Below are positions 17,983-43,055 of a stretch of 64,000 nucleotides of DNA, piece by piece. The stretch is from Antedon mediterranea (taxonomy: Eukaryota > Animalia > Echinodermata): assembly GCF_964355755.1 (NCBI RefSeq), contig NC_092675.1, positions 10,287,812-10,351,811 on the forward strand. The letters run 5' to 3'. Both the position numbers and the translations under genes were made by a program. The notes beneath the pieces are model-generated. The model did no database searches. It saw only the letters and a list, made by a program, of their open reading frames with translations, and was not told where the DNA came from. Position 1 is the stretch's first letter, and every line of letters begins with the position of its first letter.

Positions 17983-18076
17983 CAAGCTGGCCAATGATGC
18001 TGGATACCAAACCTAGAGGGCGCATTTCAGCTTTCTCATCAAGAACCATGTTAAGATACTGTATTTCGGGTAACTC
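17983..18076 (-). CDS. NAF1: NAF1-like exon (start of Gar1/Naf1 domain)
   Basis: ttgttacag|...|gtgagt, 94 nt: ELPEIQYLNMVLDEKAEMRPLGLVSSIIGQL, matching the remembered NAF1 pattern ELP.....I.L.....L.PLG.VSSII.QLV. Confidence 0.8.
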
Positions 18077-18830
18077 CTGTAACAAAGTATAGAACATGAT
18101 TAAACTGATATGATCAAAAATATAATCAACTATTACAATATGTTCCATTCTCAAAAACTTTTCTTTTAAAACATTTGAACTTAATTATATACAGTAGAAG
18201 CTCTCTTTTGGGGCATCCCTGTGGAGACAAAATTCATTTGAAGGTTAAACAAAAATGTAGGAAAATTATCCATTAAAATTTCGTCTTGGATTTCTTCCCA
18301 CAATCGCGGGAAAATATGAATTACTGATTGATGCAGGCAGTTAGTCCGTACATAAAAGTGTCTGAAATGACGTGCATTGATGCAAACATTTTTACGGATA
18401 CTTTCACAATCTATGTACCAATCTCGGTGATTCCACCACGCTCACAATCTATGTACCCCATTAGCGTTTTATAGAGAAACACTAAGAAAACCGTTCGGAG
18501 CCACCGGTAGCCCAGCAACCCAGCGAGGGGGAGATGTCTCCCTGAGAAAACCCACACCGCCGGGCCACACCCCTTAAATTGCGTGTGTGAAGCAAAGCAA
18601 AGCTCTCGGTGATTCCACCACGCTCGGTTTCGCGCTAAGTACACCTCATCACTCACTTTTTTTTTTGGCTTATCTTAAATGACGAAGTAAGGGCTTATCT
18701 TAAATGATGAAATAACATATTTCTTTTAGTTTGTTTTCCATATCTATTACCAATCGAGTTCTTAAAAATTGATGAAAACTATTTATAGCTTTTTCTTCAC
18801 TCTAAATAATATTATTAAATGAGAACTTAC

Positions 18831-18894
18831 ATCAACTTTAATTTCTTTGCCTGTCATAAGTGGTGGTGGTGGTACGGTTAATTTCTCTGCAGTT
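18831..18894 (-). CDS. NAF1: NAF1-like exon
   Basis: ttgttttag|...|gtaagt, 64 nt, phase 2 to 0: TAEKLTVPPPPLMTGKEIKVD. Joins both neighbouring exons in frame and corresponds to the P.KTKDE segment preceding ELP in NAF1. Confidence 0.75.
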
Positions 18895-19345
18895 CTAAAA
18901 CAAATAAAACTAATAAAATTAAAACACTATAATACCGTAAAACCTCCAAAAGAAGCCCATGGGCTTCTTTTTTTAGGACTCTTGGTTGGGCTTCTTTTTA
19001 AGATGGGCTTCTTTTCGAGACTGGCTCCTTTTCAAGATGGACTTCTTTTCGATGTTACTTTTGCAAACTGAGATGGGCTTCTTTTCGATATGGGCTTCTT
19101 TAGGGAAGAATCTCAGGGGATTTCATTTCGAGGGTTTAATTTAATTTATGTTTATGTAGGATTTTCTTTCTTTCAATGTATAATTTTTTACGAATTGTAA
19201 TACAATATTAGACACGTTCTGAAATTCGTTGTAGTATAATTACCATTAGTGAAAGATGGTTAGTGTTTTAATACTTTCTTTAATTTAATTATAATATATA
19301 ATATATATATAACTCAATATAGATTACAATAATATGGATTTTTAC

Positions 19346-19476
19346 CTTTTCCCAAGCTGCTCCTCCTCATCACTGTAATCATCATCATCATCATCATCTT
19401 CTGATGAACTTATCTCAGATGAAGACAATTCTGATTCATTGCTAGAATCCACATTACTGGAGGAGCATGATACAGA
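19346..19476 (-). CDS. NAF1: NAF1-like Ser/acidic exon
   Basis: ttttcag|...|gtaaaa, 131 nt, phase 0 to 2: SVSCSSSNVDSSNESELSSSEISSSEDDDDDDDYSDEEEQLGK, a Ser/Asp tract typical of the NAF1 N-terminus. Confidence 0.75.
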
Positions 19477-21606
19477 CTGAAAAAAAAAACAAATTTACAT
19501 TCTTAGTGTTATGTTGTATTATTCATTCTGCTTAATATCAATCTGTTTGTTTAAATTAGGTTATATGCATTATCATGCATATACTAGCAGTAGCAGTAAG
19601 CCGGTGCTCCACATGGTCTTTTTCCGCCTTAATATAATACAAGCACACTCTGATAAAAGTACTTTGACAAATTATTGGAAAAAAAACAAATTGTATCAAG
19701 AAAAAATGTTTACGGCCATTGATTTTGTATACACACTATCCTTTCATTTTGAAATATATGTAAATAAACTAAAAAATGAAAGCAATACTGGATATGGAAC
19801 TTCTGACTGTTCAGACTTTTATGAAAATAAAAGACCCTAAAGAAAAATTGTGCTGTGTGAATTAGATAATGTGCGCAACACCTTATAAAATGCCAAAATA
19901 TATTAATTATTATTTTGGGTATTTTTCATGGTGATAATTATTTGATACACATGAAATAAAAAAGTAGACATAAATCGAATGAAAAACACATTGCTACGGA
20001 AAAACGAATTGTTAACTTGTTTTCTTGTTCAATCAAACCATTTGGAATCGTTTTGTTTGAGTGTGTGTTCATTTTTATTCATTTACAATTTTTTTTTTTT
20101 ATTTCAATGGTTTTGATATTTTGCAATGTTTTTTGTGTGGGAGATTTGTTAATACCTATTTGCTATTTTTATAATTAAATTGTGGTCTAGCAGTAACCCG
20201 GCCCCAAACAAATTAAATTGTCAAGAATAAAATTCGGAACTATTTACGGACATTGATTTTGTTATAAACAAAGTACGTCGAAACATGACACCCTTTTGGA
20301 TTTGTTTTATTTTTGTGTGTTTTTTTGTTAACTTACATTTTTTTTTATTTCAATGGCTTTTTATACTTTGCAATTTTTTTTTGTGGTTGGTATCTTTTTT
20401 GCTAGTTTTGTAATTACATTGTGATCTAGTTTTGATTTTTTTGCTTTAAGCGGTAATACATATTTACACATATCATGGATTCCAGATCGAACGTACTAAG
20501 CATTTATATCAATGGCCACAACGTTTGACTCACTGAGCAAAACCGTGATTTACGAAAATAATTCTGTTCAAAGGATAGGTGTAATTAATTAAAACTTTAA
20601 CAACGCGATCATTCGATACAGTTGACCGGCTGCCAAGCATACACTGTCTTAATTTTTCGGCCCGGCATGGTATTTGTAGATCTGGCCATGGCAGTACACA
20701 ATAGGAGGATGTTGCGTAGTTTATACAGTGACGTAACATGGTCGCTGAGACGTCAAATTACTGTCATTTTTTGCCTTTTTAACTGTTTATCCTTAAAATT
20801 CAGGATAAAGTGACATACAGGTAGTCTATTGTGTACAGCCCCTCAATAAACATCAGTGTGCCAAATGTGAGCATGTACAGTACCATTCATTGGTTTCGGA
20901 GGATTAAAATTACGCAAACAATTTAATAGCATTAATATATGGATAATCTTATTGATTTTGTCAGAATCTTTATGTTGTGATTCGATTTGAGTATGATCCG
21001 CTATTGAATAGGTTAGCTTCAACCAAGCAGATTTGAGCGTGTGAGGCCCGCCTCTATGAAGGGATAACCGACGCAGAAATTATTCAGACACACTGTGTTG
21101 GTTGCCACACAAGACTTCATTCATCTCCTTCCGTATGTGCATATATTCACGTTATTCTTACAAGAACAAAAAAACCCTGAATCGAATAACTATGTTAACT
21201 TGTACATGTACATCATAAGCACCTTTCAACCATTATAATCGACGATTATAATGGTATAAAATGTTCAAAGAATCATCGTAACATTGATAAATAGAATTAA
21301 ATACTTCTTAGACTTAGTACATAATAACTTTCTGAAAATTAAAAGTCTTCTACCGACGGCAACAAACAACAAGCCTTATAACGGAAGAGACTCATGGTAT
21401 GCAAATTAAGTTTACATTCCAACGCACGCCACCAACCAATTCTGATATAGCAAACAGAATCGAACCGTGACATATTCCCCGCTTGAAGGACCCTTTTGAC
21501 CCAAAAAGGCGGAAAAATAATTTAAGCAATGCAAATTAGTTCTGTAAACTAGCCATAGGCAACCGGTGAGGATTTCGATGCATACTTTAACTGTGTAAAA
21601 CATTCA

Positions 21607-22624
21607 GGAACTACAATGAAACTACATTGTCAACGTTATTAAATTCGAAACTACAGTGAAACTACACTGTCAACGTTATTACTGGAAACTACACTACAGT
21701 GAAACTACACTGTCAACGTTATTACTGGAAACTACACTACAGTGAAACTACACTGTCAACGTTATTACTGGAAACTACACTACAGTGAAACTACACTGTC
21801 AACGTTATTACTGGAAACTACACTACAGTGAAACTACACTGTTAACGTTATTACTGGAAACTACACTACAGTGAAACTACACTGTCAACGTTATTACTGG
21901 AAACTACACTACAGTGAAACTACACTGTCAACGTTATTACTGGAAACTACACTACAGTGAAACTACACTGTTAACGTTATTACTGTGAAACTACACTGTT
22001 AACGTTATTACTGGAAACTACACTACAGTGAAACTACACTGTTAACGTTATTACTGGAAACTACACTACAGTGAAACTACACTGTTAACGTTATTACTGG
22101 AAACTACACTACAGTGATACTACACTGTTAACGTTATTACTGGAAACTACACTACAGTGAAACTACACTGTTAACGTTATTACTGGAAACTACACTACAG
22201 TGATACTACACTGTTAACGTTATTACTGGAAACTACACTACAGTGAAACTACACTGTTAACGTTATTACTGGAAACTACACTACAGTGATACTACACTGT
22301 TAACGTTATTACTGGAAACTACACTACAGTGAAACTACACTGTTAACGTTATTACTGGAAACTACACTACAGTGATACTACACTGTTAACGTTATTACTG
22401 GAAACTACACTACAGTGAAACTACACTGTTAACGTTATTACTGGAAACTACACTACAGTGAAACTACACTGTCAACGTTATTACTGGAAACTACACTACA
22501 GTGAAATTACACTGTTAACGTTATTACTGGAAACTACACTACAGTGAAACTACACTGTTAACGTTATTACTGGAAACTACACTACAGTGATACTACACTG
22601 TTAACGTTATTACTGGAAACTACA
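21607..22624. repeat. 43-bp tandem repeat array, left part
   Basis: Unit GGAAACTACACTACAGTGAAACTACACTGTTAACGTTATTACT, period 43, roughly 23 units; degenerate units at the left edge. Confidence 0.97.
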
Positions 22625-23855
22625 TTAAGCGTCACACCCTCATAAATTTTCAGGGGCGGGGGGACGGTTTTTTTTTTTTTTTTTACTTTTTATAGAGGTA
22701 TATTTTTGCGCGGTGGACGTTTTGCCCCACTTTTTTTAGGACGAAACGTCAAACTTTTAAAATGCGAAACAGAACAAAATTGACTATGTATGAAATATTA
22801 TTGCTTATGACAAAATTGAGTTTTGTATTGTTCATATCCAGACGTAATTAAAACATTAAATTTAATTGCCACCAAGCGAAATTGTAGGCCCTAGGCTAAC
22901 TAATCCGTCCAAGCTGCTACCCCCACCTCACTCATCGGCCATCCGCCGTTTCTCGCTCGACTCATCTATCCAGGAAATTCCCTATCACGAGAAGCATGAT
23001 TTGGTCTCAATAATACTAAATAGTGGGCTGATTTATAGTTTGAAAACAGCTTACGGCATTTCTTAAGTGAATTTTTATTCAACGTATTCATTCTTCTTTG
23101 ATGAATCCTTTGCCAATTGCTGTGTAAATCAGTATTTAAAGTTGTGATGCAAAAAGTGTATGTAATTATTCCACAGATAAACCAGGCATAAGGAAACCCA
23201 TCGCCCAACAGGACCGCGTGGTGTGCCGATCTCGAGCGCGAGATCATCGTAAACAAACTTGGTAGAGTCCATTATGTATGGGGTGTTTCCTATTTACGAA
23301 CCTATAAAAAAACGCGCTTCGACCACTGTGTAGGCAAAATATTTATTTCGTTAAATCCCTAAATTGATAATCGCGTATTCTGTAATCACGTGACTGATGA
23401 TGTAATCCTCAGCGACGTACTAAATGCACCTGATTTAATGTGTTGGGGAAAAAGCTTGCTGTTTACCACATTACATGATTCACGGTGCTATTCGCGTTTC
23501 CTTGACGTAAATCGGCGGCGTGTAAATGAAACAATTGTTTTCACCAAATTGCCGTTGTCGACATAGAGCGATCGGCGGCTAGCGTTGTCTAAGCTAAAAA
23601 GTACGTATTTTTCCAAAATTACACTAGCCTAACAAACATTTGCTAGTTTTGAAATTTTCAAATAGCACTTTATGAAGAATCTACTAGCAAAATCCTAGTT
23701 TGCTAGCGTGAATTTCGAGCCCTACTCTGGAGCTGGGCCGGGCCGCTGAACTTTCCGTTGTATATCGGTAAAAAAAAAATAAAAATAAAAAGAGAGGCGG
23801 CTGGATAATCAGGAGCGGGCGGTGACGCTTAACAAGTATGTTTTTTTATTTGGCC
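22625..23855. mobile_element. Harbinger-type MITE inserted in the satellite, left outer TIR lost
   Basis: Right end GTGACGCTTAACAAGTATGTTTTTTTATTTGGCC|TTA; left end starts at TTAAGCGTCAC (inner TIR only). Confidence 0.7.
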
Positions 23856-25551
23856 TTATTACTGGAAACTACACTACAGTGAAACTACACTGTTAACGTT
23901 ATTACTGGAAACTACACTACAGTGAAACTACACTGTTAACGTTATTACTGGAAACTACACTACAGTGAAACTACACTGTTAACGTTATTACTGGAAACTA
24001 CACTACAGTGAAACTACACTGTTAACGTTATTACTGGAAACTACACTACAGTGAAACTACACTGTTAACGTTATTACTGGAAACTACACTACAGTGAAAC
24101 TACACTGTTAACGTTATTACTGGAAAATACACTACAGTGAAACTACACTGTTAACGTTATTACTGGAAACTACACTACAGTGAAACTACACTGTTAACGT
24201 TATTACTGGAAACTACACTACAGTGAAACTACACTGTTAACGTTATTACTGGAAACTACACTACAGTGAAACTACACTGTTAACGTTATTACTGGAAACT
24301 ACACTACAGTGAAACTACACTGTTAACGTTATTACTGGAAACTACACTACAGTGAAACTACACTGTCAACGTTATTACTGGAAACTACACTACAGTGAAA
24401 CTACACTGTTAACGTTATTACTGGAAACTACACTACAGTGATACTACACTGTCAACGTTATTACTGGAAACTACACTACAGTGAAACTACACTGTTAACG
24501 TTAATACTGGAAACTACACTACAGTGAAACTACACTGTTAACGTTATTACTGGAAACTACACTACAGTGAAACTACACTGTTAACGTTATTACTGGAAAC
24601 TACACTACAGTGAAACTACACTGTTAACGTTATTACTGGAAACTACACTACAGTGATACTACACTGTTAACGTTATTACTGGAAACTACACTGTTAACGT
24701 TATTACTGGAAACTACACTACAGTGAAACTACACTGTCAACGTTATTACTGGAAACTACACTACAGTGATACTACACTGTTAACGTTATTACTGGAAACT
24801 ACACTGTTAACGTTATTACTGGAAACTACACTACAGTGAAACTACACTGTTAACGTTATTACTGGAAACTACACTACAGTGAAACTACACTGTCAACGTT
24901 ATTACTGGAAACTACACTACAGTGAAACTACACCGTCAACGTTATTACTGGAAACTACACTACAGTGAAACTACACTGTTAACGTTATTACTGGAAACTA
25001 CACTACAGTGAAACTACACTGTTAACGTTATTACTGGAAACTACACTACAGTGAAACTACACTGTTAACGTTATTACTGGAAACTACACTACAGTGAAAC
25101 TACACTGTTAACGTTATTACTGGAAACTACACTACAGTGAAACTACACTGTTAACGTTATTACTGGAAACTACACTACAGTGATACTACACTGTTAACGT
25201 TATTACTGGAAACTACACTACAGTGAAACTACACTGTTAACGTTATTACTGGAAACTACACTACAGTGAAACTACACTGTTAACGTTATTACTGGAAACT
25301 ACACTACAGTGATACTACACTGTTAACGTTATTACTGGAAACTACACTACAGTGAAACTACACTGTTAACGTTATTACTGGAAACTACACTACAGTGAAA
25401 CTACACTGTTAACGTTATTACTGGAAACTACACTACAGTGAAACTACACTGTTAACGTTATTACTGGAAACTACACTACAGTGAAACTACACTGTTAACG
25501 TTATTACTGGAAACTACACTACAGTGATACTACACTGTTAACGTTATTACT
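23856..25551. repeat. 43-bp tandem repeat array, right part
   Basis: Same unit, roughly 39 units, including 27-bp deletion variants. Confidence 0.97.
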
Positions 25552-26894: not shown

Positions 26895-27218
26895 CTTTTT
26901 TTCTGCACATGTAACCTGCATATCCTCTTCCTTATCCTCAGTTTTTCTATTTCTATCTTCACATTCAGAATCAGCCATGACTATGTCTTTGTCACTACAA
27001 TTTTCATTTAAAGTCACAGCACTGCATGATTGTGTATCAGTGCAACACTCATCACTGACAGTATGATCCTCATCTTGCAATGCTGGTTGACAGTGGTTGA
27101 TTACAGATTGTAGTACAATATTTGAATCTGTTTGGGATATTGATTCATCCTCCTTAATCACAGTAGGATCCTTTATTTCATTGGTAGAATCCACATTACT
27201 GGAGGAGAATGATATAGA
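26895..27218 (-). CDS. NAF1: Repeated N-terminal exon, copy 5 in transcript order (324 nt, phase 0-0)
   Basis: ttttcag|TCTATATCA...GAAAAAAAG|gtatgt; open 108 codons SISFSSSNVD...VTCAEKK. Linkage to NAF1 is inferred from frame and shared sequence. Confidence 0.7.
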
Positions 27219-29560
27219 CTGAAAAAACAATATTACATTCTTAGTGATATTTTGTATATATAACACCTAAATAAATTGCTGTCATGTGATTGGACGATTG
27301 TGGGTCACATGGCGTTCAATAGTACGCACTATTGCAGGGTTGGACATTAACGCCATTAACGCATTATCGCCCAGTCGCCCATGGCGACCTTTATTCACCT
27401 AGAGCAACTAACAATTCTGTAATGGTCTCTCCGTTTGGCTACAAATCAAAACCTCTATAAATCTGTACTTTTTACTATGACCAAGATAGGCCAGGCCTGC
27501 CCTAGTTCAAGTCGATTTAAACTCTTCATAAGTCAAGAGAGTAATGATTCCCAGCTTCGTCCTTCATGGAGATGAAGCACAACAAGTCACCAAAATGGGG
27601 ATTCCCCTGCCTGCTGCTTTCATCAAGCACGAATTTACTTCATTACCTTATAGTGTATCCAGTATGGTATCAGAGTAACGCCTCCTTTACAGCAAGGCAT
27701 GCATAATAACCAACCAAATTACTATTTTTTTTTATTGAACGAAGCAATTTTGAATTTGATAAATAAAAATAGTTTATAAAATATTTAATAGTAGGTCTAA
27801 ATAAATGTTTATCATTTAGAGAGTCCATTTTGCTTCAATTCTGCCTCTGTTTTTCAAGTAAATTTTTTATTCAGGAACCAGTTAGATAACTTCTTGAATC
27901 CGAATCCTCCGCAAAACATGTGATGCATGCCCTGCCTGCTGTCTAGAGCTGCTCTTCTGGCCCTCCCGTGATGTGTGTGTGACCAACACATCCGGTTGTT
28001 TGATAATCAAATATAACCATTTCTTGATTATTTTTAAATCATTATTCGCAAATTATTATCAACATTGCTTGTTTTAAATTGTATAAATTTATGAAAAGGC
28101 CTACAGTACTGGTCAGAGGACTTTCGAGATTCTCGCTCGTGTTTTTCTGCTGTGTTTGTGGAGCGTTTCTAGAGTGTTTATCGAGGGATCGAGAGATTGA
28201 ATGCTGACCTCGGCCAGCGAAGCGTGAACATTTTACAACAACAATTGAAATCAATCATATGTACATAATATGAGCCCTTTTTATCTTTAGATTACTGACT
28301 TTGTTTATCTTCAACAAATAATACAAAGTATATTAATTAACATAATAAAAAAACAATAAAATATGTTTAAAATTCACATGTTAAAATTCATATCTTCAAA
28401 TTCCGAGTCAACAACATGCGCATCTACGATCTTTGTTATGTTGGTGGTCATCAACCCTAGATTTACGAAACTTTAGGCGATATGACGTCACGCAGCAAGC
28501 AAATGGTTTTCTCATCAGCTTTCGCTGCAAATTTTACAAAATTGTTTCTGTTGACTTTTTCCAGGGCATACAAAAACGATCATTTTGATGCAGTTTATTT
28601 ATTTTGTTTCAACGTTTATTCTGTTCATTAGATATACATAATAATTATATCGGTGATGATTACATACAGTACATATGCTATGCTACGGTAATTCATTGAA
28701 AATAAATGTAATTTCTTAACACATTTTTCTTTCTTCAAGCACAACGTTCAAACCAACTCAGAGAGCCTTGCTGTGTGAATCGCGGCACCACTGCTGACAG
28801 ACCATGTGTTTACTGACTGAACAGCAAACAACGCACTTTGGCCGGCCGGCTGTTTGCCACGATTACCGTTCTTCTGTGTATCATAATGCAACTCAAAGCA
28901 TGAATTTGTTTTATAATAAATAATTTTGTATTGAATGTGCTTTTATCAACTAAAATGAGATGTGAAAAATATGAATACCAAAGCCGAATAAAAAAATTTC
29001 AAAATAATATATTTTTAAAAAACCACATGATCGTATGAGGTCAATCACATGGTTCAATTAACAGTGGAAGAGTACAGTGTAGTAAATGGGGTAATATTTT
29101 TGTGGAAAAAACAACATCCTTAAGTATCGTTTTGCCCGATTTATTTCAAAAATCGTATGACCCCAGTTGGTGAGAATAACGACAACAACAGCACCTCATC
29201 CCCCAAACCTCATAAAAAAAAATTTTTTTTAAGTTCTAGAAATATTGCATTAAATATTTTATTAATAATGTTCATTAGGAACATTGAAACATGAAATTTA
29301 TTTTTCTGTTTTTTCGCCTTAAATATTACCATTACAAATTTGGAGTTTGAATTTGTACACTGCAATGTCCCATTGGCGCCTGCTGCTGGAAATACTGAAA
29401 AACGGTATTGGAAAAAAAATTGGGGCCACTAGATTTCGATAAGGGCAACAAACATTTATTTGTTGGGTAGCCCTGCTGGCTCTTGAGGTTTAGTGCTTTT
29501 GTGAAGCAACAGAGTGGAAATAACAGCGAAATTCTATATGATCCGTTTTTGGATCATATA

Positions 29561-31445
29561 CAGTACAGATAAAAACTACTGCAACATTTGCCACGCGTAG
29601 GTAACGTAGTCTACGCGTGGCGGGTGCGTGGCGGTTGCGTGGCGTAGCATTCGTAGTGCGTAGGCTACGCGTAGCATTCGTAGCCTACGTTGTGATCAAC
29701 TGTGTGTGGGAATTCCCCAAACTCAACTGTGTACAAGTACATCGTCGACGGCTAAGCAGGCTACGAAAGGTTCGAATAAATAGAAATGATACGATTGTTT
29801 CGCCAATACAATAATATCATCATCATTATTAAACATACTTGAAATTCAAATTTTTCTAAAGAAAATAGCAATTAAAATTGCTCAAAGCCTAGGCTAGACG
29901 CAAAAAGTCTAGGCTACTGCTGACTGCTGTACATTCACCATCGCCAGCCAGGCAGTAGTGTACAAAATGAATTGATGACGGGCCGTTATTATGACTACCT
30001 TCCATAGCAATAGTATTAGTAGTAGGCCTAAAATTGCAAGTTAATTTTTTATAAGTAATTAATACAGTACTCAGTATGTTTCATTTAAACAAAAAATATC
30101 CAGGTTTGAAACTGTCGTAACTGTACATCAAACTCCATTATTAGCTATTGTAACAACCTGCGGCAGAGGATCGGTGGAGGGTCAAGTTACAGGTCGTTTT
30201 ATAGAACATCGTCATCAGCAGAGAGGAGGAGGATCGGAGGACACATAACACATGGTATAATACCTCCATGCATAACATGTGCTTGCCTGATCTTGTTGTT
30301 TTGGTTTTTTTTAGTCATGCGCGATAATAAATTAGATAGTATTTAAATAAATGTTATTTTAGTTATAAATAAAAATAAATTTTAGGGTTAGGAAATATGC
30401 AAGACTTTATTTAATAAAAGTTGAACTTCACTAAATTGAAGGTTAAAATCAAAACATAAAAGTACAGTTCAGAGAGTGTATCCATCCGCGGATCATAAAA
30501 ACGTGGATATAAACACACTGGGCGAATGAATTACAAATGGAGTGATCCGTCTCGATTTCCGTTGGAACAAAAATAATATCGTATTTGTATTCTACTATTT
30601 TGACATTTACAGTATTTAAACAATTCATATTATCCCATAGTACTAAATAAGCGTAATATTTCATTTAAACGCAATTTTAAAACGAAACATCGTTCATTAT
30701 ATAGCCTAGTATTAGTAAACAAACATAGTTCAGACAGTAGAGTTGTACTGCGCGATACACACACGTGGGTAAACAGCAGCTTCACGGCGAAAACTGTCGT
30801 ATAAAGAAAATATCCTTCTGTCACCTAGCTAGGCTATACACATTATTTCACATTTTCACGCCATGTACATCGTATTTAACGCTTGTACACAGTATGGATT
30901 ATCATACAGTACTACTACTAAGTAGGCCTATAAGTAAGGCGTACCACATATTTTAAAATTAAACTGTCGGTAGGTACGCCGGTAACCCTACCTTTTTAGC
31001 AAGCTAGCTAGGCCTAGCCGGAGGCCATTTCACACAAACAGACGACGACCGCCGTCCGTCCGTACGATGGCCGATCGGTGATAGATGTACTACACTTCTT
31101 CTTCTTTCATAAAAATAAATGTTCCATTTTAACACAACCAACACACAATAATTAATACTAATATTAATACATTTATTATTACTTCACAGTAATTAACTCG
31201 CATTTTAAATTTGATGAAAACTAGTATTCAAATTCGTTAACTAATTCCGTGTGGTGCATGCAGCGCAGTACACAATAATCTGAACATTGGGATTTCCCCT
31301 CCTAGCTCTCGCTTCGTAGGCTACGCGTAGACTAAGCGTAGCATGTTAGCTTGCGTAGATTACGCCACGCGAAACCTACGAAGTGGCCACGCGTACGAAA
31401 CGTAGTCTACGCGTCCAAATGTTGCAGTATTTATTATCTGTACTG
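29561..31445. mobile_element. TA-targeting MITE (Tc1/mariner-like termini)
   Basis: TIRs CAGTACAGATAAAAACTACTGCAACATTTG / CAAATGTTGCAGTATTTATTATCTGTACTG; TA TSD; empty site GGATCATATACTGC seen in paralogous units (~26791, ~36693). Confidence 0.85.
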
Positions 31446-31561
31446 TACGCTTTTTTGCAAAGGGTGTATGAAACATTAGCCAATCAATTTAATTAGCAAT
31501 TATGACAAATCTAATCTAGCAAATTTCTAGTTTGCTGGGATGAATTCTAGCCTTGACATAC

Positions 31562-31885
31562 CTTGTTTTCTGCACATGTAACCTGCATATCCTCTTCCTT
31601 ATCCTCAGTTTTTCTATTTCTATCTTCACATTCAGAATCAGCCATGGCTATGTCTTTGTCAATACAATTTTCATTTAAAGTCACAGCACAGCATGATTGT
31701 GTATTAGTGCAACACTCATCACTGACAGTATGATCCCCATCTTGCAATACTGGTTGACAGTGGTTGATTACAGATTGTAGTACAATATTTGAATCTGTTT
31801 GGGATATTGATTCATCCTCCTTAATCCCAGTAGGATCCTTTATTCCATTGCTAGAATCCACATTACTGGAGGAGAATGATATAGA
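31562..31885 (-). CDS. NAF1: Repeated N-terminal exon, copy 4 (324 nt)
   Basis: Same AG/GT boundaries; open frame. Confidence 0.7.
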
Positions 31886-31934
31886 CTGAAAAAAACAATA
31901 TTACATATATTACATTCTTAGTGATATTTTGTAT

Positions 31935-32840
31935 TATATAACACCTAAATAAATTCCTGTCATTTGATTGGACGATTGTGGGTCACATGGCGTGCAATAG
32001 TACGCACTATTAAACGATCGTTTAATAGTACTTTTTGAAACATTTTTGTGTACGAAAAAAAAAACGTCTCGCGGATGAAAAAAAATCTAGTACACAAATT
32101 ATCCTATGATATGGCTCTGTACGGTGAAATACAACAGCGCCACCTGTCGTCTGGTCTCAGTTTCATTTGTAAACACCACCGCGAGATATGCAACAGCAGC
32201 AGATATTTGTGTATGATTTGGACATTATGTACTAATTTCATTCAAAAAGGCATTTAAATTAGCTTTAGTTCGTTTTTAGGATTTTGATTAATTAATGGGG
32301 ACATCCCTACAAGACGTGGAATTGTTGGAAAAACCATAATTAGCTTTAGATAAGTTCCAATTGTCTGTCGAAGTTTTGCCTTTCAGCCAAGCTAGTACTA
32401 GGTCTAGCCTAGGCCATGCTAGTATCTATTAGGCTAGGCCTAGCCAAGGCGTTTTAGCCTTGCTTGGCCTAGGATTGTTTGGTCGTTTGTTGACATAATT
32501 AACACAAAAGTAGGTGTGTTTACGAAATCCATATAAATATAACATTTAATATAAAATTATTAAAAACCAAATGTTACTGTTTTTAATCAATGTGAATGAA
32601 ATGTAGTAGGCTAGGGCTACCTTTTATTGATTCAAATAACTTGAATTTATTTAGATGTTATATACAAATAACAAATAATGAATGTTTTGTATTCGTGTAA
32701 TGGTACAAATAATGGCACTTGGTGAATGATGAAAGGTTATATTTCAACTCGGCTCATCGCCTCGTTGAAATATAACCTTTCATCATTCACCTCGTGCCAT
32801 TATTTGTACCATTACACTCATAAACATTCATTATTTGTAT
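31935..32840. mobile_element. Non-autonomous element with long terminal palindrome (Crypton-like)
   Basis: Starts TATATAACACCT...GATTGG; ends in a ~170-bp hairpin (32671-32838); related pieces at ~1150-1220, 38953-39090 and 53125-53573. Family is inferred. Confidence 0.55.
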
Positions 32841-34241
32841 ATTATATAACACCTAAATAAATTGCTGTCATTTGGTTGGACGATTGTGGGTCACATGGCG
32901 TTCAATAGTACGCACTATTGCAGGGTTAGACATAACAATCGCCCGGTCGACCTTTATTCACCTAGGGCGACTAACAATTTTGTAATGGTTGCCTCGTTTG
33001 GCGACCTACAAATCAAAACCTCTATAAATCTGTACTTTTTATTATGCCCAAGATAGGCTAAATAGACCACCCCCTGCCCTAGTTCAAGTCGATTTAAACT
33101 CTTCCCAAGTCAAGAGAGTAATGATTCACAGCTGCTTCCTTCATGGAGATGAAGCACAACAAGTCACCAAAATGGGGATTCCCCTGCCTGCTGCTTTCAT
33201 CAAGCACGAATTTACTTCATTACCTCATAGTGTATCCAGTATGGTATCAGGGTAACGCCTCCTTTACAGTAAGGCATGCATAATAACCAACCAAATTACT
33301 TTTTTTTATTGAACGAAGCAATTTTGAATTTGATAAATAAAATAGTTTATAAAATATTTAATAGTAGGTCTAAATACATGTTTATCATTTAGAGAGTCCA
33401 TTGTGCTTCAATTCTGTCTCTGTTTTTCAAGTAAATTTTTTATTCGAGAACCAGTTTGGTAACTTCTTGAATCCTCCTCCTCAAAACATGTGATGCATGC
33501 CCTGCCTGTTGTCTAGAGCTGCTCTTCTGGCCATCCTGTGATGTGTGTGTGACCAACACATCTGGTTGTTTGATAATCGAAAATAAACAATTCTTGATTA
33601 TTTTTAAATCAATATTCGCAAATTATTATCAACATTGCTTGTTTTAAATTGTATAAATTTGTGAAAAGGCCTACAGTACTGGTCAGAGGACTTTCGACAT
33701 TCCCGCTCGTGTTTTTCTGCTGTGTTTTTGGAGCGTTTCTAGAGTGTTTATCGAGGGATCGAGCGATCGAATGGTGACCTTGTTGTTTTACAACAACAAT
33801 TGAAATCAATCATACGTACATAATATGAGCCCTTTTTATCTTTAGATTACTGACTTTGTTTATCTTCAACAAATAATACAAAGTATATTAATTAACAATA
33901 ACATTTATAAAAAAACAATAAAATATATGTTTAAAATTCACATGGTAAAATTCATATCTTCAAATTCCGAGTCAACAACATGCGCATCTACGATCCTTGT
34001 TATGTTGGTGGTCATCAACCCTAGATTTACGAAACTTTGGGCGATATGACGTCACGCAACAAGCAAATGGTTTTCTCATCAGTTCTTTCTGCGAATTTGA
34101 CAAATTGTTTCTGTTGACTTTTTCCAGGGCATACAAAAACGATCATCTTGATGCAGTTTATTTATTTTGTTTCAACGTTTATTTATACTGTTCATTAGAT
34201 TACATAATAATTATATCGGTGATGATTACATACAGTACATA

Positions 34242-35915
34242 CAGTACTGACTACAAATCATGTACCATAACCCGCGTTTGTCGCACGTGTAAAATATGTG
34301 TAATTGCCGCGTGCCTGTATTTGCCGTGTGGACCATGATGTCATCACTTTGTAGCTTTTTACTGGTAAAATATGGAACTCCCGGTACGACGCCCGCGACA
34401 ACACACACGTGGGTATCAGTTGTTTTGTTTCTATTGTTTAGGCCTACCATCATATTTATGTAATCTGAACCCGCCCGTTAACTGTATGTAACAAAGTTTA
34501 TTTTTTCTCTATTGTTTAGGCAAACAATAAATAAGAAAGTTTATAGAATTCATGTAAATTGTTTTTCATCGGGGTTTTGTTTAGAGTTCACGTCGTATTA
34601 TTTTATATAATGTGAGGCCTACAGTGAGAAGTTTACAACAGGGAGGCTAGAATAGAGAGCTACTGTACCTAAGCCCCCCACAAAAAAAACATATTTAGCA
34701 ATCTTTAATAGGTCAATAAATAGCCTAATAATAGTAAAATTATAAAATGATGTTTCCTTGTATTTTCGTAACCGTAAGCCAAATATTTAAATTAAAATAA
34801 AGAGCTAGTGTTTTAGGCCAAGTACAGTATTGGCTCAAATAACTGTGACTGTGAATGGCTTTTCCGCCGCTCGGTGTAGAAAGTCAAATTATTACGTTCT
34901 TCTAACACGTTTATTAAATGTCTTTTAGTATATTTCTATCTAACATGTCTGCATTGTATACTTGCTTTATAAATTCTCTGCTTATGAAACAACTTAATAA
35001 GTTGCTAAATTGACGTTTAAAGCAGATATTTGTCTGGCATCAGCACATGTTTATAATGAAAACAAAACAAGGTTCCAAAAATGGTACAGTCCAAAATGAG
35101 GTGTGCAATTAAATAATATCAACGTAAACATATGCGCACGGTATCAGGGCTGTAATTATAAGAGAACTGATTTCCCCTGGATGGGAAATGGTAAAAACTT
35201 GTATTTATTCGACCTTGCTTCTCTCGTTAGTTACCGCGCTAAATACATGCATGTCAATACTGGCGTTGTAATAAATGTTTTCCTCCCCGACGGGGAATGG
35301 TAAAACCTTTATGTTATTATTTGGCTTAGCAACTGTGTGTACTCAATGGATGAACTCTACAACGTGGTGCGTACAGAAGTACGTCATTCGGCCACCAGCG
35401 ACGATCGTGTTTTGAAAGATATTGTTGGGTCTTTTCTACCTTGTTTTTTTTAATGAGTTTTCTCAAATACTTAATAAATATGACTTTAAAATATATACAG
35501 TATAAACAAACCCTGAAAGTAAACTAGGCCTAGAATAGTAGTACTGTACTCCCGGTAGTAGGCCTAGTATTTTCAATCACAGACATAATTGCATCATGAT
35601 TCATGGAGGTTTTTACCTCCATGATTGCACTATGATAAATAAATCAATTTTTTATTTCAAATAGGCCTATATTTTGTTATATAAAATGCTGTTATCCTGT
35701 ACTGTAATTCCAGTTATTGTCTGTTTGATGATAATAATATATATGAACAAAACATCAACAAATTATAAATACAGTTCGCTGCAGTTGAATTACTCAATGC
35801 AGTAATGCACGAGTGAATATGGACAGTATTGTTAGTACCTAATTACACGCGAGTCATGCGTTTTCACACCCGTGTAAAATGTGTGGGCTTGGTATATGAT
35901 ATGTAGTCAGTACTG
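34242..35915. mobile_element. TA-targeting MITE
   Basis: TIRs CAGTACTGACTACA / TGTAGTCAGTACTG; TA TSD; empty site TACAGTACATATGCTATGC at ~28665. Confidence 0.85.
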
Positions 35916-36818
35916 TATGCTATGCTACGGTAATTCAATGAAAATAAATGTAATTTCTTAACACATTTTTCTTTCTGCACAACGTTCAAACCAACTCAGA
36001 GAGCCTTGCTGTGTGAATCGCGGCACCACTGCTGACAGACCATGTGTTTACTGACTGAACAGCAAACAACGCACTGTGGCCGGCCGGCTGTTTGCCACGG
36101 TTACTGTTCTTCTGTGCATCATAATGCAACTCAAAGCATGAATTTGTTTTATAATAAATAATTTTGTATTGAATGTGCTTTTATCAACTAAAATGAGATG
36201 TGAAAAATATGAATACCAAAGCCAAATAAAAAAATTTCAAAATAATATATTTTTAAAAAACCACATGATCGTATGAGGTCAATAACATGGTTCAATTAAC
36301 AGTGGAAGAGTACAGTGTAGTAAATGGGGTAATATTTTTGTGGAAAAAACAACATTTTTTTTAAGTTCTAGAAATATTGCATTAAATATTTTATTAATAA
36401 TATTTTATTAATAATATACATTAGGAACATTGAAACGTGAAATGTTTTTCTGTTTTTTCGCCTTAAATATTACCATTACAAATTTGGAGTTTGAATTTGT
36501 ACACTGCAATGTCCCATTGGCGCCTGCTGCTGCAAATACTGAAAAACGGTATTGGAAAAAAAATTGGGGCCACTAGATTTTGATAAGGCAACAAACATTT
36601 ATTTGTTGGGTAGCCCTGCTGGCTCTTGAGGTTTAGTGCTTTTGTGAAGCAACAGAGTGGAAATAACAGCGAAATTGTATATGATCCGTTTTTGGATCAT
36701 ATACTGCTTTTTTGCAAAGGGTGTATGAAACATTAGCCAATCAATTTAATTAGCAATTATGACAAATCTAATCTAGCAAATTTCTAGTTTGCTGGGATGA
36801 ATTCTAGCCTTGACATAC

Positions 36819-37142
36819 CTTGTTTTCTGCACATGTAACCTGCATATTCTCTTCCTTATCCTCAGTTTTTCTATTTTTATCTTCACATTCAGAATCAGCC
36901 ATGGCTATGTCTTTTTCACTACAATTTTCATTTAAAGTCACAGCACTGTATGATTGTGTATCAGTGCAACACTCATAACTAACAGTATTATCCCCATCTT
37001 GCAATACTGGTTGACAGTGGTTGATTACAGATTGTAGTACAATATTTAAATCTGTTTGGAATTTTGATTCATCCTCCTTAATCACAGTAGGATCTTTTAT
37101 TTCATTGGTAGAATCTACATTACTGGAGGAGAATGATATAGA
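36819..37142 (-). CDS. NAF1: Repeated N-terminal exon, copy 3 (324 nt)
   Basis: Same AG/GT boundaries; open frame. Confidence 0.7.
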
Positions 37143-37946
37143 CTGAAAAAAAACCAATATTACATTCTTAGTGATATTTTGTATTATAGAACACCTAAAT
37201 AAATTGTCATTTGATTGGACAATTGTGGGTCATATGGCGTTCAATAGTACGCACTATTGTTGGGTTAATCATTTAACAATCGCCCGGTCGCCCATGGTGA
37301 CCTTTATTCACCTAGGGTGACTAACAATTTTGTAATGGTTGCCTCGTTAGGCGACCTACAAATCAAAACCTCCATAAATCTGTACTTTTTATTATGACCA
37401 AGATAGGCTAAATAGACCACCCCCAGCCCTAGTTCAAGTCGATTTAAACTCTTCCCAAGTCAAGAGAGTAATGATTCACAGCTTCTTCCTTCATGGAGAT
37501 GAAGCACAACAAGTCACCAAAATGGGGATTTCCCTGCCTGCTGCTTTTATCAAGCATCAATGTAGTCAAAGGTAAATAAAAAATTTTGAATAACTTTCAT
37601 AAATTTTGTAAAATTTGCATAATCCATAATAAGTCAAAACACATTTGAAAATAAAATGTCCTTGTCATTATTTTTCTTTTTTAATTATTTTAGTTTAGTT
37701 ATGGTTATGCTTTTTTGGTCCCGTAGGAGCAAAATAAACTTAGGGGTCAATGGGTCAAGAGAATAGACCAAATACTATAGCCTACCTACAGTAGGCTAGC
37801 ATAGCTAGGCCTAGACCTTATGTAGCCAGGCTAAGTTAGGCCTAGTTGGCCACTGAAATTCGAGGCTAGTCAGACCATGCAAAATAAAAACATGTTGGCC
37901 TGATTTCTTCCAAAAATCGTATGACCCCAGTTGGTGTGAATATCGC

Positions 37947-38362
37947 TGTCATATTATGTTTCTACATTCCTATAGTTAGATAAAGAATGTTTTAGACCAG
38001 GTCTGCTAAATTTATAAGCCAATCATATGGTACTCCTCTGAAGCCCCTCATTTGCATGTTGAGTATATAAAGGAAATGTTATAGATATTGAGAGAAGAGA
38101 TAATAATATCATAGTAGAAAGACATATGAGTATAGAGAAGAAAGGTCTAGACTGGTAGAAAGTTGTATTGTATTAATAGTATTAAATATGGAGTTACAAG
38201 AAAAAATAAAAATACAAGAAATAAAAGTTGATATAGTAGAATATACTTTTGTATGTGGAATCGCTTTTAGTCTGTGTACGGTCTTGTGGATGTGTACGGT
38301 CTCGTGGATTAATACGCCAGAGAAAGCATACGCTCGGAACCGACTCGAATAAATTCACTAAA
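37947..38362 (+). mobile_element. Probable solo LTR
   Basis: Starts TGT; contains CCAAT, TATATAAA and AATAAA; flanked by 5-bp direct repeat ATCGC; absent from the paralogous position (~29175). The 3' end is AA rather than CA. Confidence 0.6.
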
Positions 38363-38573
38363 ATCGCCAACAACAAATTTTTGTTTTTAAGTTCTAGAAA
38401 TATTGCATTAAATTTTGTATTAATAATATTTATTAGGAATGTTAGAACATGAAATATTTTTGTTTTTTCGCCTTAAATATTACCATATCAATATATCAAT
38501 TTAATTAGCAATTATGACAAATCTAATCTAGCAAATTGCTAGTTTGCTGGGATGAATTCTAGTCCTGACATAC

Positions 38574-38915
38574 CTTGTTTTCTGCACATGTAACCTGCAT
38601 ATCCTCTTCCTTATCCTCAGTTTTTCTATTTCTATCTTCACATTTAGAATCAGCCATGGCTATGTCTTTTCCACTACAATTTTCATTTAAAGTCACAGCA
38701 CTGCAAGATTGTGTATCAGTGCAAGATTGTGTATCAGTGCAACATTCATCACTGACAGTATGATCCCCATCTTGCAATACTGGTTGACAGTGGTTGATTA
38801 CAGATTGTAGTACAATATTTGAATCTGTTTGGGATTTTGATTCATCCTCCTTAATCACAGTAGGATCTTTTATTTCATTGCTAGAATCCACATTACTGGA
38901 GGAAAATGATATAGA
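38574..38915 (-). CDS. NAF1: Repeated N-terminal exon, copy 2 (342 nt, 18-nt internal duplication)
   Basis: Same boundaries; in-frame TDTQSC duplication. Confidence 0.7.
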
Positions 38916-39517
38916 CTGAAAAAACAATATTACATTCTTAGTGATATTTTGTATATAACACCTAAATAAATTCCTGTCATTTGATTGGACGATTGTGGGT
39001 CACATGACGTTCAAGAGTACGCACTATTCAACGGTTGTTCAATAGTACTAATTCGCCTCGTTGATAACATTTCATCATTCACTTCATGCCACCTAACTCA
39101 ACTAAAAGTTGTTTTTCAGTAAGGCCGCACTCAAAACGAAAACATATACTAAAAAATGGATACAGAAAAATGTAAAGTAGAACAGACCTAATTACTTTTA
39201 AAGCAAAATAATAAAACAATTAAAATGAAATCAATAATGCACTTCAATTAAAGTCCCATTCCCTAGATTTTTTTAATCTAATTTAAGGTCACAAACTACA
39301 TTTAATGTAAAGAATAAATACTATATGGTCCTATTGCAAAAGATTGTTTGTCTTTAAACAGTTACACATGTGAAAAATAAGTTGATTCTATATGTCAAAT
39401 AATTAAGTTGAATTTACAAAGATTATTTGCTAGAATAAAAGGTAACCATTTTACCAACCAGCAAAATTTAGCCAGCAAATGGCTAGTTTGCTGGGATGAA
39501 TTCTAGCCCTGACATAC

Positions 39518-39796
39518 CTTGATTTCTGCACATGTAACCTGCATATCCTCTTCCTTATCCTCAGTTTTTCTATTTCTATCTTCACATTCAGAATCAGCCA
39601 TGGCTATGTCTTTTCCACTACAATTTTCATTTAAAGTCACAGCACTGCAAGATTGTGTATCAGTGCAACATTCATCACTGACAGTATGATCCCCATCTTG
39701 CAATACTGGTTGACAGTGGTTGATTACAGATTGTAGTACAATATTTGAATCTGTTTGGGATTTTGATTCATCCTCCTTAATCACAGTAGGATCCAT
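39518..39796 (-). CDS. NAF1: Probable first coding exon (copy 1), MDPTVIKEDES...
   Basis: Same donor AAG|gtatgt; ATG at 39796 preceded by an in-frame TAA; candidate acceptor ttttaag at 39821, so 39797-39820 would be 5'UTR. Confidence 0.6.
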
Positions 39797-39873
39797 TATA
39801 CTGATATCATGTTAATTTACCTTAAAAGATAACAAGTATACAGTAGAATCCTCCCTTTTAGACACACCTATTA

Positions 39874-40016
39874 AGGGGACACCCCTATTAAGGGCCTATC
39901 ACAGCACACCTGGACACTCCTATTCAGGGGACACCCCTATTAAGGGCCTATCACAGCACACCTGGACACTCCTATTCAGGGGACACCCCTATTAAGGGCC
40001 TATCACAGCACACCTG
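39874..40016. repeat. 52-bp tandem repeat, about 3 copies, inside a CAGTAGAA-type MITE end
   Basis: GGGGACACCCCTATTAAGGGCCTATCACAGCACACCTG recurs with period 52. Confidence 0.8.
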
Positions 40017-42227
40017 TTCTGGCAAATGAAATCAAATGTCAATGTTTCATTTTCATGTGGCTACGCACAAATAGATTGACGTATTTATAGCCGAATGGAA
40101 CGTCGTAAAAACGAAACTTTGACTTTTGATTTGATGGACAGGAACCATGCCAGGACAGATGTGAAAGACCAATTTTAAGGGCCATTTTTTCTGGTCCTAA
40201 AGCTGAAAATGTCCTGCCAGGCCATTTAGAGAACTGACTAATACTGACCATCTTAAAATTGTTTATGTTTCAGAAGCAACACCAATAATGTTTATCAAGA
40301 ACTTTTTTTTCTTATTATTTTAATAATTTTTTAGTTATATTATATAATACATTTCATTTTTCCTCTTCTTTCGTCTTCTTCAAGCACATATTCTCTCCCT
40401 TCCATTATTCTACATGTATGTGTAAAATATAGTGAAGAAACAAATTTACTGCCCGCTGGTATAATTAAGTAAAATACTGCCAAAACATGTTTGTTAATTC
40501 TCACACTTAGCCTAGAGTGACAACTATTCCATCAAATCAATCATTTTTAGGAATCAATCGTGTGTGCTTTTATCTTGTTGTTTTTTTCGTTTTATGGTTT
40601 TTATTTTCAGTGAGCATCAAAATCAATGTTTTTTTGTTCTGATTCTAATTGTGCATAGTTCCCCCTGTTATACCACAGCATTAAGTTTTTATATTTTGAA
40701 ATAAAGTTATTATTATTATAAATCTATGTCGATTCTAAAAAAGTGATTGGCAAATTATACACAAACTTGAAGTATTTACATTCTTTCTGTCAAATTCTGG
40801 GTGTAATGTTATAAATTATACAGTGCAACAACAAAAGCACATACCCACTGCAGGCAAATAACACAGCAATCAATTTTGTAGACTTTCCCCTCGAGATTTC
40901 TCACTGAAAATATAAGTAAAAACATCAATGAAATTGGAATGTTTTAAAGTGTATATAAAAAAAATTATAACTCCCACACATAATGACATATTCAACTAAT
41001 AATCTTATTGTGTTTACATGGAGTTTGTTGTTTTGAAGTCTGAACACCGGTAATTATTCTCATTAACATGGCTGTTTCTAAAAGCTCTGCACTTTGAAAA
41101 TTAATCCAACTATAAAATGATTGGTTACTAGTTGTATACAAAATACTAAAAGACATTCACCCTCATAAACAAGAAGTACATCCTCATTAAACAATTTGTT
41201 TTTGCTTTAAGAAGTCGTAAGGAAACATTTTTAGTAAACATGTGCATCTTGCACATCAATTCATTAAGCATCATTAAAGAATATGTAGCTCAGTTAAGCT
41301 GGGCTAATCACAGTATTCTACAAATTAAAGTCTCTTAGTAGCAATTTATAGGCCGTTAAAATGATTCTTCAAATAATTAATTAGCTTTTTGACTTGCAGT
41401 TGAACTTGGACAGACCTGATGGTTTAATTTCAAATAAAAACAGATTTTAAAATTTTCAAAATCAGGAAAGTAATGTTTTTTTATATTATTTTATTTTATA
41501 TTGTGAATGACGTTTGATATTTAAATTTATGAAAAAAATCAATCAAGCCTAGATGTCAACAAGTGATAAATGGCCAGTGAGGTACTATAAAGAGACATTC
41601 GAGTGTGAATAAGTTGTATTCTATTACAGTACAAACAAAAACTTTACTATGGACTGTTTTGATCATAATTCAATGATTATCTGAGGGTGAATTATTATAT
41701 CAACCTAGATTGACAGTCAAATGGGAGTCATTATAAATACCGGCCTATATGTTGACAGCCAAAATAAAGTTTTGATTTGACAGTGAATTATTATAATACC
41801 GGCCTAGGTTGACAACAATTCAATTCATTTATTTTCCGGAAGACGGATTGTAGAAAAGTGACGAAGTCACTTATGTGAGTACTCTCCTTCTGGTGCAGAC
41901 AAAAACAACAAGTTAACAGCAAATGACAAGAAAAAGTCATTATTTATTTTGAAAGACTTTACAGATTACTGTCTACATGCATCTCAATAATACTGTATTA
42001 TCAGCAAATGTTTTCATAGACTGTCTTCTCCCAGATGTGCCTTGGGGTTTGTAATTTGAGCTTGACCCTGCCAAGTTTACAAAATTCCAAAACTGTCAGC
42101 CTCTAGAACTATAGCTTCCGTTTGATATAGCTTCTGAATGAGTATCTTCTGGGAATATAGCTGGCTAAATGTTATTATTAAAATACAGTTCAGGTAAATA
42201 ATTTTTCTTACAATCCAATTTGTAACT

Positions 42228-43055
42228 TTATTTTTTATTTTATTTTATTCAATTTCCAGGTAACATACAAAAATCATAAACAAGGTACGGCATCATTCAA
42301 CAAAACAGAACAAAAGTACTATCAGCACCTGCGGGTAACCAAAAGTGGATCAGTTCAAAAGAACTGCACTGTCGAGTGGCTTTCCCAACTAATAGTACGA
42401 ACAACGCAATAGACATAAAAACACAGTGATAGTCTAGATGAATTCGATATCAGTAATACATTTTTTCAAATCCCTTCTAAACCCCCCAAAGTTAAACAGG
42501 ACTTTGTTACGAACTTCATGCGGGATACATTCCCATATTCGAGGGAAATTAACAAACAGGGAGTATTTAAATGCATTAGTTCTAGCATACATGTGTTTAA
42601 AGGTGAGGGACTCTGGATACCGAGAATTAATTGTAAGGTATTCAAATATATCAAAATCAATTAAATTATGCAAACACTTAACTACAAAAATTATACTATG
42701 AAATTTCATTCTTTGAACCATATCTGGTAAATTTAGAATCTTAAGCCTGTCAGTGAAATCGCCTTCAACACACAATTTAGTAACCCGTCTTAATGACTTG
42801 TTAATAGCTATATTATGTTGTTTTTGATGTGGATCCCACACAGGAGCACCATATTCAATAACAGGTCGACATAGTGCATTAAAAAGTCGTAGTAAAATTT
42901 CGGTGTCATTGAAACCTACAAACCGTTTGATAAACCCAAGCATTCTCATAGATTTCATCGATACATCATTAACGTGAGCAGACCATGTTAAATCACGTGA
43001 GAAGTTAATACCAAGATACTATCACTCTTAATGTGCATGTGCAAGCAAACCTGTT
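42228..43055 (-). mobile_element. CR1/L2-group LINE 3' fragment
   Basis: ORF 42434-42958 RMLGFIKR...LFNALCRPVIEYGAPVWDPH...FKYSLFVNFPRIW; (TAAAA)n-like tail at ~42228-42250. Confidence 0.85.

What the first reader, a model, noticed from the sequence alone, without database searches (positions are those of the whole stretch)
26895..39796. NAF1-like gene with an array of five near-identical, frame-preserving Cys/acidic exons
Seen: five minus-strand copies (279 coding, 342, 324, 324, 324 nt), each with an intact GT donor. Copies 2-5 have an intact tttcag acceptor, are phase 0-0 and carry no stops or frameshifts, while the introns between them have accumulated different TE insertions and deletions. 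They splice in frame onto exons reading SSSEDDDDDDD...PPPLMTGKEIKVD|ELPEIQYL...PLGLVSSIIGQL. Known: NAF1 assembles H/ACA RNPs (snoRNPs, telomerase RNA) and has a low-complexity acidic N-terminus. Inference: this copy gains about 430 extra residues, with about 7 Cys per repeat (HC...ECC...SC...NC...EC...TC) in an Asp/Glu-rich context. Symmetric exons could be skipped combinatorially, giving length-tunable isoforms or a possible metal-binding/redox module.
Basis: partly seen in the sequence, partly recalled or inferred. Interest (0 to 1): 0.78.

Follow-up and report, generated by a model that had tools for sequence, protein, structure and literature searches.

The report
Recent hybrid-exon expansion in NAF1
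A repeated duplication inside the gene for the RNA-assembly factor NAF1 has made four extra in-frame hybrid exons, which likely lengthen the protein's predicted floppy front end by up to 438 residues without adding a new function, so this is a tidy species-level case of a common kind of gene change.

Summary
There are five minus-strand copies (279, 342, 324, 324, 324 nt) with intact splice sites, and all 16 skip patterns stay in frame. The gene is NAF1: exon 18076-17983 matches PDB 2eqn_A and crinoid NAF1, and a 1416-nt contig from one run splices the three downstream exons exactly.

Copies 2-5 are chimeras: the acceptor and first 42 nt of the exon at 19476 are fused to the first coding exon, whose ATG now reads AAG or AAA. 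They arose by duplicating a segment from exon 1 through intron 1 into the start of exon 2.

No frameshift sits among 29 exon changes (p 0.008-0.04 against introns), but amino acids show no constraint (3-4 of 23 variable sites are synonymous), cysteines are gained and lost, and no fold is predicted. The related crinoid NAF1 already has 8 cysteines at its N-terminus. Depth arithmetic suggests spliced chimeric heads in the RNA-like run, but no copy-to-copy junction was seen.

Best reading: near-neutral lengthening of a disordered N-terminus. A metal or redox module is not supported; tunable skipping is untested.

The parts
39518..39796 (-). E1: likely the first coding exon of NAF1 (93 codons from ATG, 7 Cys) and template of the repeat core
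   Evidence: An in-frame stop lies upstream of the ATG. First-exon status is inferred.
38574..38915 (-). R2: chimeric exon (42 nt from the E6 start plus the E1 core), phase 0-0, with an in-frame 18-nt tandem duplication; core 99.3% identical to E1
36819..37142 (-). R3: chimeric exon, 324 nt, phase 0-0, one Cys lost
31562..31885 (-). R4: chimeric exon, 324 nt, phase 0-0, one Cys gained
26895..27218 (-). R5: chimeric exon, 324 nt, phase 0-0, last copy before E6
19346..19476 (-). E6: ancestral second coding exon (Ser/Asp-rich, 131 nt, phase 0-2); its acceptor and first 42 nt are the source of the repeat heads
   Evidence: Homology 19435-19522 to R2-R5; spliced to E7 in run X1 record 1
18831..18894 (-). 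E7: Pro-rich linker exon (64 nt, phase 2-0)
   Evidence: Joints in X1; aligns to crinoid NAF1 residues 198-216
17983..18076 (-). E8: exon reaching into the start of the Gar1/Naf1 domain (94 nt, phase 0-1)
   Evidence: PDB 2eqn_A E=8.7e-5; P0001 71% identity, E=1.8e-5; profile E=2.8e-13; spliced in X1
40845..40903 (-). Candidate 59-nt 5' UTR exon (TTTTCAG acceptor, GTATGT donor); untested
   Evidence: Sequence only

Best explanation
A tandem duplication inside NAF1, with one breakpoint at the start of coding exon 1 and the other 42 nt into exon 2, likely created a hybrid phase 0-0 exon that was then multiplied to four copies; these are likely spliced into the mRNA and would lengthen a predicted disordered N-terminus by up to 438 residues, kept in frame by selection but otherwise drifting. 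Shown: chimeric anatomy, open frames, intact splice sites, NAF1 identity, and splicing of E6-E7-E8. Inferred: the order of events (unequal crossing-over with some conversion), inclusion of the hybrid exons, disorder, and near-neutrality. The Gar1/Naf1 domain that binds dyskerin lies downstream and is not touched by the repeat.
For: Chimera: R2-R5 match E6 and its upstream intron over 19435-19522 (87-89%) and match E1 from about 39799, with ATG read as AAG or AAA. Frame: 0 frameshifts (one in-frame 18-nt indel) among at least 29 exon substitution events, against 17 non-3n indels per 80 substitutions in 2283 aligned intron bases; Fisher p=0.008, rising to 0.018 and 0.041 when indels near homopolymers are dropped. 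No protein constraint: 3-4 of 23 variable core sites are synonymous against about 4.4 expected (binomial p 0.66-0.84), and exon divergence (3.1-5.6%) is not below intron divergence (3.5%). RNA: run X1 record 1 (1416 nt, 0 differences) joins E8-E7-E6 at two GT..AG introns, joints absent from 3 of 3 other runs, and runs on 1075 nt past E8. X1 depth fits record 1 alone in the two E8 bins and the E7 bin, but shows an excess of about 17 that fits places 19435-19478, with depth 0 at intronic 19480; this is the footprint expected of spliced chimeric heads. Disorder: all five copies lie on the disordered side of the charge-hydropathy line; pLDDT 41. NAF1 N-termini vary in length up to 332 aa, median 186, among 83 of 120 homologs that start with Met.
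Against: No copy-to-copy or R5-to-E6 junction was seen directly. The inclusion signal is arithmetic on binned contig depths from one run, the tool warns that depth is a poor expression measure, and the extra records were not listed. An excess of about 17 is far below four-fold inclusion (about 60). Record 1 extends 52 nt upstream of E6, which fits none of my graph models (34 nt for full inclusion, 279 for E1 only, 3 for both). The absence of stops is not significant (P about 0.26). The frameshift test uses one intron pair and is biased because intact arrays are the ones noticed. The rest of the NAF1 domain is not in the window.
Confidence: 0.6

Rival explanations
1. The hybrid exons are mostly skipped: the main mRNA joins E1 to E6, and the copies are young duplicated DNA included only at a low level.
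For: The excess X1 depth at the head is about that of one copy, not four. Substitution rates in exons match introns. The lack of stops is expected by chance.
Against: Splice sites equal the ancestral ones in all four copies. Frameshifts are missing relative to introns. Record 1 stops 52 nt into the upstream exon instead of running through E1, as an E1-only graph predicts, though a coverage break could also do that.
Confidence: 0.2
2. The array is adaptive: regulated combinatorial skipping tunes N-terminal length, or the Cys/acidic repeats bind metal or sense redox state and modulate H/ACA RNP or telomerase assembly.
For: 16 of 16 skip patterns are in frame. 74 of 114 columns are invariant, including five Cys columns. 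0 of 120 homologs have an internal N-terminal repeat of 30 aa or more, so the state is unusual.
Against: No synonymous excess; Cys lost in R3 and gained in R4; invariance follows from recent age. Cys is only about 6-7.5% of residues, and the crinoid homolog has 8 Cys with two CC pairs in 104 aa without any repeat. No confident fold. No Pfam family at E below 0.6.
Confidence: 0.1
3. This locus is a 5'-partial or decaying NAF1 duplicate, and the functional gene lies elsewhere.
For: No exon for crinoid NAF1 residues 248-365 lies in the 17,982 bases downstream: tblastn with 120 homologs and profile searches gave a best E of 0.42.
Against: The spliced contig matches E6-E8 with 0 differences and continues 1075 nt, enough for the 314 remaining residues of the crinoid homolog. 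A long, repeat-filled intron explains the gap equally well.
Confidence: 0.06
4. The array is an assembly artefact.
For: None found.
Against: Copies differ by 0.7-5% with different intron blocks and indels. DNA-like runs show about 3.7-4.6 times the local depth at 19480, where the copies are homologous (depth is not a copy number, and these runs are one sample that may be the assembly's source).
Confidence: 0.02

Closest known systems
NAF1, H/ACA RNP assembly factor (Pfam PF04410 Gar1/Naf1); nearest hit XP_033115585.1 of the crinoid Anneissia japonica (P0001)
   Same: E7-E8 align to residues 198-247 and score best of 120 homologs. Both have an acidic Ser-rich stretch before a Pro-rich linker and a Cys-containing low-complexity N-terminus. 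Function (binds dyskerin through the GAR1-like domain, later exchanged for GAR1) is taken from passages of PMC5519232.
   Different: With all copies included, the region before E8 would be 596 aa against 216 in P0001 and at most 332 among the 120 homologs aligned. 0 of 120 have an internal N-terminal repeat. E1 has no significant BLASTP match to P0001.
Tandem exon duplication / internal gene duplication in animals
   Same: Adjacent paralogous exons with flanking intron homology. A passage of PMC3342872 says 7-17% of metazoan genes carry tandem exon duplications and that many may be nearly neutral. Passages of PMC7605655 describe an intragenic duplication that includes part of exon I of sole dmrt1.
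   Different: Here the breakpoints fall in two different exons, so the repeated unit is a new hybrid exon, and it was amplified to four copies in a housekeeping assembly factor.
Mutually exclusive exon arrays such as Dscam (named in PMC3342872; details recalled)
   Same: An array of paralogous exons with their own splice sites.
   Different: The copies are 95-99% identical and not diversified. The introns are long (602 nt or more) and the exons are multiples of three, so nothing in the anatomy forces exclusive use.
Metallothioneins and other Cys-rich metal-binding repeats (recalled)
   Same: CC pairs and scattered Cys.
   Different: Cys is about 6-7.5% here against roughly 30% in metallothioneins (recalled); spacing is wide (6-18 residues outside the CC pairs) and Cys is gained and lost among copies.

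Membership tests
NAF1 | Gar1/Naf1 domain (PF04410) | tested here: inconclusive
   E8 alone gives no Pfam hit. It matches 2eqn_A (that LOC92345 is human NAF1 is recalled) and P0001 residues 217-247, while PF04410 in P0001 spans 235-322. The rest is outside the window, and the 1075-nt continuation in X1 was not shown as letters.
NAF1 | Best homologs are NAF1 rather than GAR1 | tested here: met
   The only hit at E up to 0.001 among 1.84 billion representatives is P0001, named NAF1-like. A profile from its homologs hits E8 at E=2.8e-13. E1, E6 and E7 show no Gly-Arg repeats.
NAF1 | Long acidic low-complexity N-terminus before the domain | tested here: met
NAF1 | Pro-rich C-terminal region | not testable with these tools
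   Outside the window; no genome is held
NAF1 | Binds dyskerin and is needed for H/ACA RNA accumulation | not testable with these tools
   Needs an experiment; known function from PMC5519232 passages
Tandem exon / internal gene duplication | Adjacent paralogous exons in one gene with homologous flanking intron | tested here: met
Tandem exon / internal gene duplication | Duplicated exons used in mRNA | tested here: inconclusive
   Indirect depth footprint only
Mutually exclusive exon array (Dscam-like) | One variant per mRNA | not tested
   No junction data over the array; the anatomy gives no forcing mechanism
Metallothionein-like metal-binding repeat | High, conserved Cys content in closely spaced motifs | tested here: not met
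   6-8 Cys per 93-114 aa, with a loss in R3 and a gain in R4; the family definition is recalled

The most novel reading that the evidence does not exclude
The four symmetric hybrid exons are skipped in a regulated, combinatorial way, so that an essential snoRNP and telomerase assembly factor carries 1 to 5 Cys/acidic modules that tune its activity or respond to metal or redox state in a regenerating echinoderm.
Probability: 0.08. Interest if true: 0.75.

Novelty: new member of a known kind. Interest (0 to 1): 0.32.

Why it matters
It is a young, readable case of how a new protein repeat is born: one duplication with breakpoints in two exons made a hybrid symmetric exon, which then multiplied, with selection apparently guarding the frame but not the residues. 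If inclusion is confirmed, it shows that NAF1 tolerates a near four-fold longer N-terminus, a natural test that this region is a passive spacer. It does not point to a new system unless regulated skipping or metal binding is shown.

Tried and rejected
No whole genome is held, so the downstream exons, other NAF1 loci and related species could not be read. The run search listed no holder on record as RNA; X1 was only guessed to be RNA. Homolog searches with E1 (longer proteins, 8 candidates, none significant) and R5 (59-189 aa, no candidate) found nothing. The ESM Atlas gave no usable hit. Pfam gave only ATG27 at E=0.64 for E1 and nothing for R2 or R5. Rfam found 0 matches in the window. The de Bruijn model did not identify which exon joins E6. 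No fold search was run because the model has pLDDT 41. Literature: 'NAF1 + snoRNP + exon duplication' gave 0 papers; the 15 listed of 137 for 'Naf1/Gar1/crinoid' had 0 occurrences of crinoid; word searches in PMC2063812 and PMC10123114 showed no mapping of the NAF1 N-terminus (passages only, supplements not read). Earlier scan findings: none by place or by words.
Full report
OBSERVATION. A self-comparison of the window shows five homologous blocks on the minus strand. Translation and boundary checks give E1 39796-39518 (279 nt from ATG), R2 38915-38574 (342), R3 37142-36819, R4 31885-31562 and R5 27218-26895 (324 each). All have GTATGT donors; R2-R5 have T-rich CAG acceptors and no stops. Joined in a script to E6 (19476-19346), E7 (18894-18831) and E8 (18076-17983), the model has 627 codons, no stop, 438 added residues and 37 Cys, and 16 of 16 skip patterns stay open.

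THE GENE. E8 matches PDB 2eqn_A, labelled LOC92345 (E=8.7e-5; that this is human NAF1 is recalled). Among 1.84 billion representatives it has one hit at E up to 0.001: P0001, 71% identical over 31 aa, named NAF1-like of the crinoid Anneissia japonica, with PF04410 at residues 235-322. E7+E8 score best against P0001, then the starfish homolog, of 120 proteins, so the host is likely a crinoid or other echinoderm (inference). The remaining domain exons are not in the 17,982 bases downstream: tblastn with 120 homologs hit only E8 (95 hits) and one chance place at E=0.24, and profiles of the missing part gave a best E of 0.42. Contigs laid on 17850-19650 largely remove this worry. In run X1, one 1416-nt contig covers E8, E7 and E6 with 0 differences, joined across the 754- and 451-nt GT..AG introns; these joints are absent from 3 of 3 other runs, and X1 depth is 0 in the intron bins that lack repeats. 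The contig runs on 1075 nt past E8 (358 codons; P0001 needs 314). The gene is therefore transcribed and probably complete, with a long intron leaving the window. This rests on one run of one study, and the letters of the continuation were not shown.

ORIGIN OF THE ARRAY. R2-R5 are chimeras. Their acceptor, about 45 nt of upstream intron and first 42 coding nt are homologous to E6 (19435-19522, 87-89%). The rest is E1 from a few bases before its ATG, which reads AAG or AAA in the copies. This is what a tandem duplication running from the start of exon 1 through intron 1 to nt 42 of exon 2 would leave, and it independently ties E1 to the same gene as E6. Because intron 1 is phase 0 and the head adds 45 nt, the hybrid exon is symmetric. 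Of 7 informative columns, 5 fit ((E1,R2),R3,(R4,R5)) and 2 conflict, which suggests conversion or unequal crossing-over. The R3-R4 and R4-R5 introns share 2.3 kb at about 96.5% identity outside gaps, so whole exon-plus-intron units were re-duplicated. The order of events is inferred; no outgroup was available.

SELECTION. In the 276-nt core, 23 columns vary and 3-4 are synonymous, against about 4.4 expected without selection (binomial p 0.66-0.84). Exon divergence among R3-R5 is 3.1-5.6% against 3.5% in the shared introns. One Cys is lost in R3 and one gained in R4. Residues are thus not detectably constrained, though the counts are small. The frame looks protected: 0 frameshifts and one in-frame 18-nt indel among at least 29 substitution events, against 17 non-3n indels per 80 substitutions in introns (Fisher p=0.008; 0.018 and 0.041 after dropping 3 and 6 indels near homopolymers). 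The absence of stops is not significant (P about 0.26). The test uses one intron pair and is subject to ascertainment.

ARE THE COPIES SPLICED IN? The indirect sign: X1's binned depth equals record 1 alone (15.63) in the two E8 bins and the E7 bin, but exceeds it by 16.6 depth-bases in bin 19375-19435 and 725 in bin 19436-19496. Extra contigs of summed depth 16.9 covering 19435-19478 predict 15.9 for the first bin, as observed; contigs running on into the intron predict 15.82. X1 depth at intronic 19480 is 0, while the DNA-like runs have 45, 1266 and 156 there. That is the footprint of spliced chimeric heads, which are 91-93% identical to the E6 head. Against leaning on this: the records are not listed, the tool warns against reading depth as expression, no variant rows appear at the expected head differences, 17 is far from four-fold, and record 1's 52-nt extension upstream of E6 fits none of my graph models (34, 279 or 3 nt; X1 is a different sample from the other runs and may carry other alleles).

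WHAT THE REPEAT IS LIKELY TO DO. All five copies fall on the disordered side of the charge-hydropathy boundary. AlphaFold on the five-row alignment gives mean pLDDT 41.2, with 105 of 108 residues below 50 (shallow alignment, weak evidence). No family or relative was found. Cys richness is not new: P0001 has 8 Cys with two CC pairs in its first 104 residues and the starfish protein has 10 in 221, among the top three Cys fractions of the homologs. NAF1 N-termini range up to 332 aa, median 186 (83 of 120 starting with Met), so length is already labile; 596 aa would be an extreme, and 0 of 120 homologs show such a repeat. NAF1 acts through its GAR1-like domain, which binds dyskerin and is exchanged for GAR1 (passages of PMC5519232; passages of PMC2063812). 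That domain is downstream of the repeat. The simplest mechanism is a tolerated extension of a spacer, with frameshifting alleles removed because the exons are included in an essential gene's mRNA.

COMPARISON AND NOVELTY. Tandem exon duplication is reported in 7-17% of metazoan genes and is often near neutral (passage of PMC3342872). An intragenic duplication including part of exon I is described for sole dmrt1 (passages of PMC7605655). Gao and Lynch 2009 was seen only as a citation in those papers. My searches found no report of such an array in NAF1, in a library that lacks most subscription journals. Verdict: a real feature and a new member of a known kind, interest 0.32. The bolder reading, regulated combinatorial skipping or a metal/redox module in a telomerase and snoRNP assembly factor, is not excluded but has no positive support (probability about 0.08).

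Noticed in passing
window 51337-58113, minus strand: Exons of a likely lysosomal alpha-mannosidase upstream of NAF1 on the same strand; 57850-58113 hits Pfam Glyco_hydro_38C at E=5.4e-4, below the curated cut-off.
   Followed up: partly
window 21610-22627 and 23856-25551: Two arrays of a 43-bp tandem repeat (about 24 and 39 copies) inside the R5-E6 intron.
   Followed up: no
window 1-511: A 19-bp satellite array (26 copies) at the window start, within the presumed long NAF1 intron.
   Followed up: no
window 9022-10437 and 42437-43018, minus strand: Open frames resembling LINE retrotransposon remnants; 9022-9987 hits Pfam zf-RVT at E=3.2e-4, below cut-off, and 42437-43018 has no Pfam hit.
   Followed up: partly
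window 32633-32874: A 242-bp imperfect palindrome (84% arm match) in the R3-R4 intron, possibly a MITE, with a partial match at 1150-1216.
   Followed up: no
window about 18930-19130 and 19550-19620: Short high-copy repeats in the E6-E7 intron and upstream of E6, with depth hundreds of times the local level in the DNA-like runs.
   Followed up: no
window 39794-39811, minus strand: A short out-of-frame ATG-initiated frame (5 codons) ends in a TAA that overlaps the E1 ATG; a possible small upstream ORF if this stretch is in the 5' UTR.
   Followed up: no
window 39861-40016: Three copies of a 52-bp repeat just upstream of the putative E1 acceptor.
   Followed up: no
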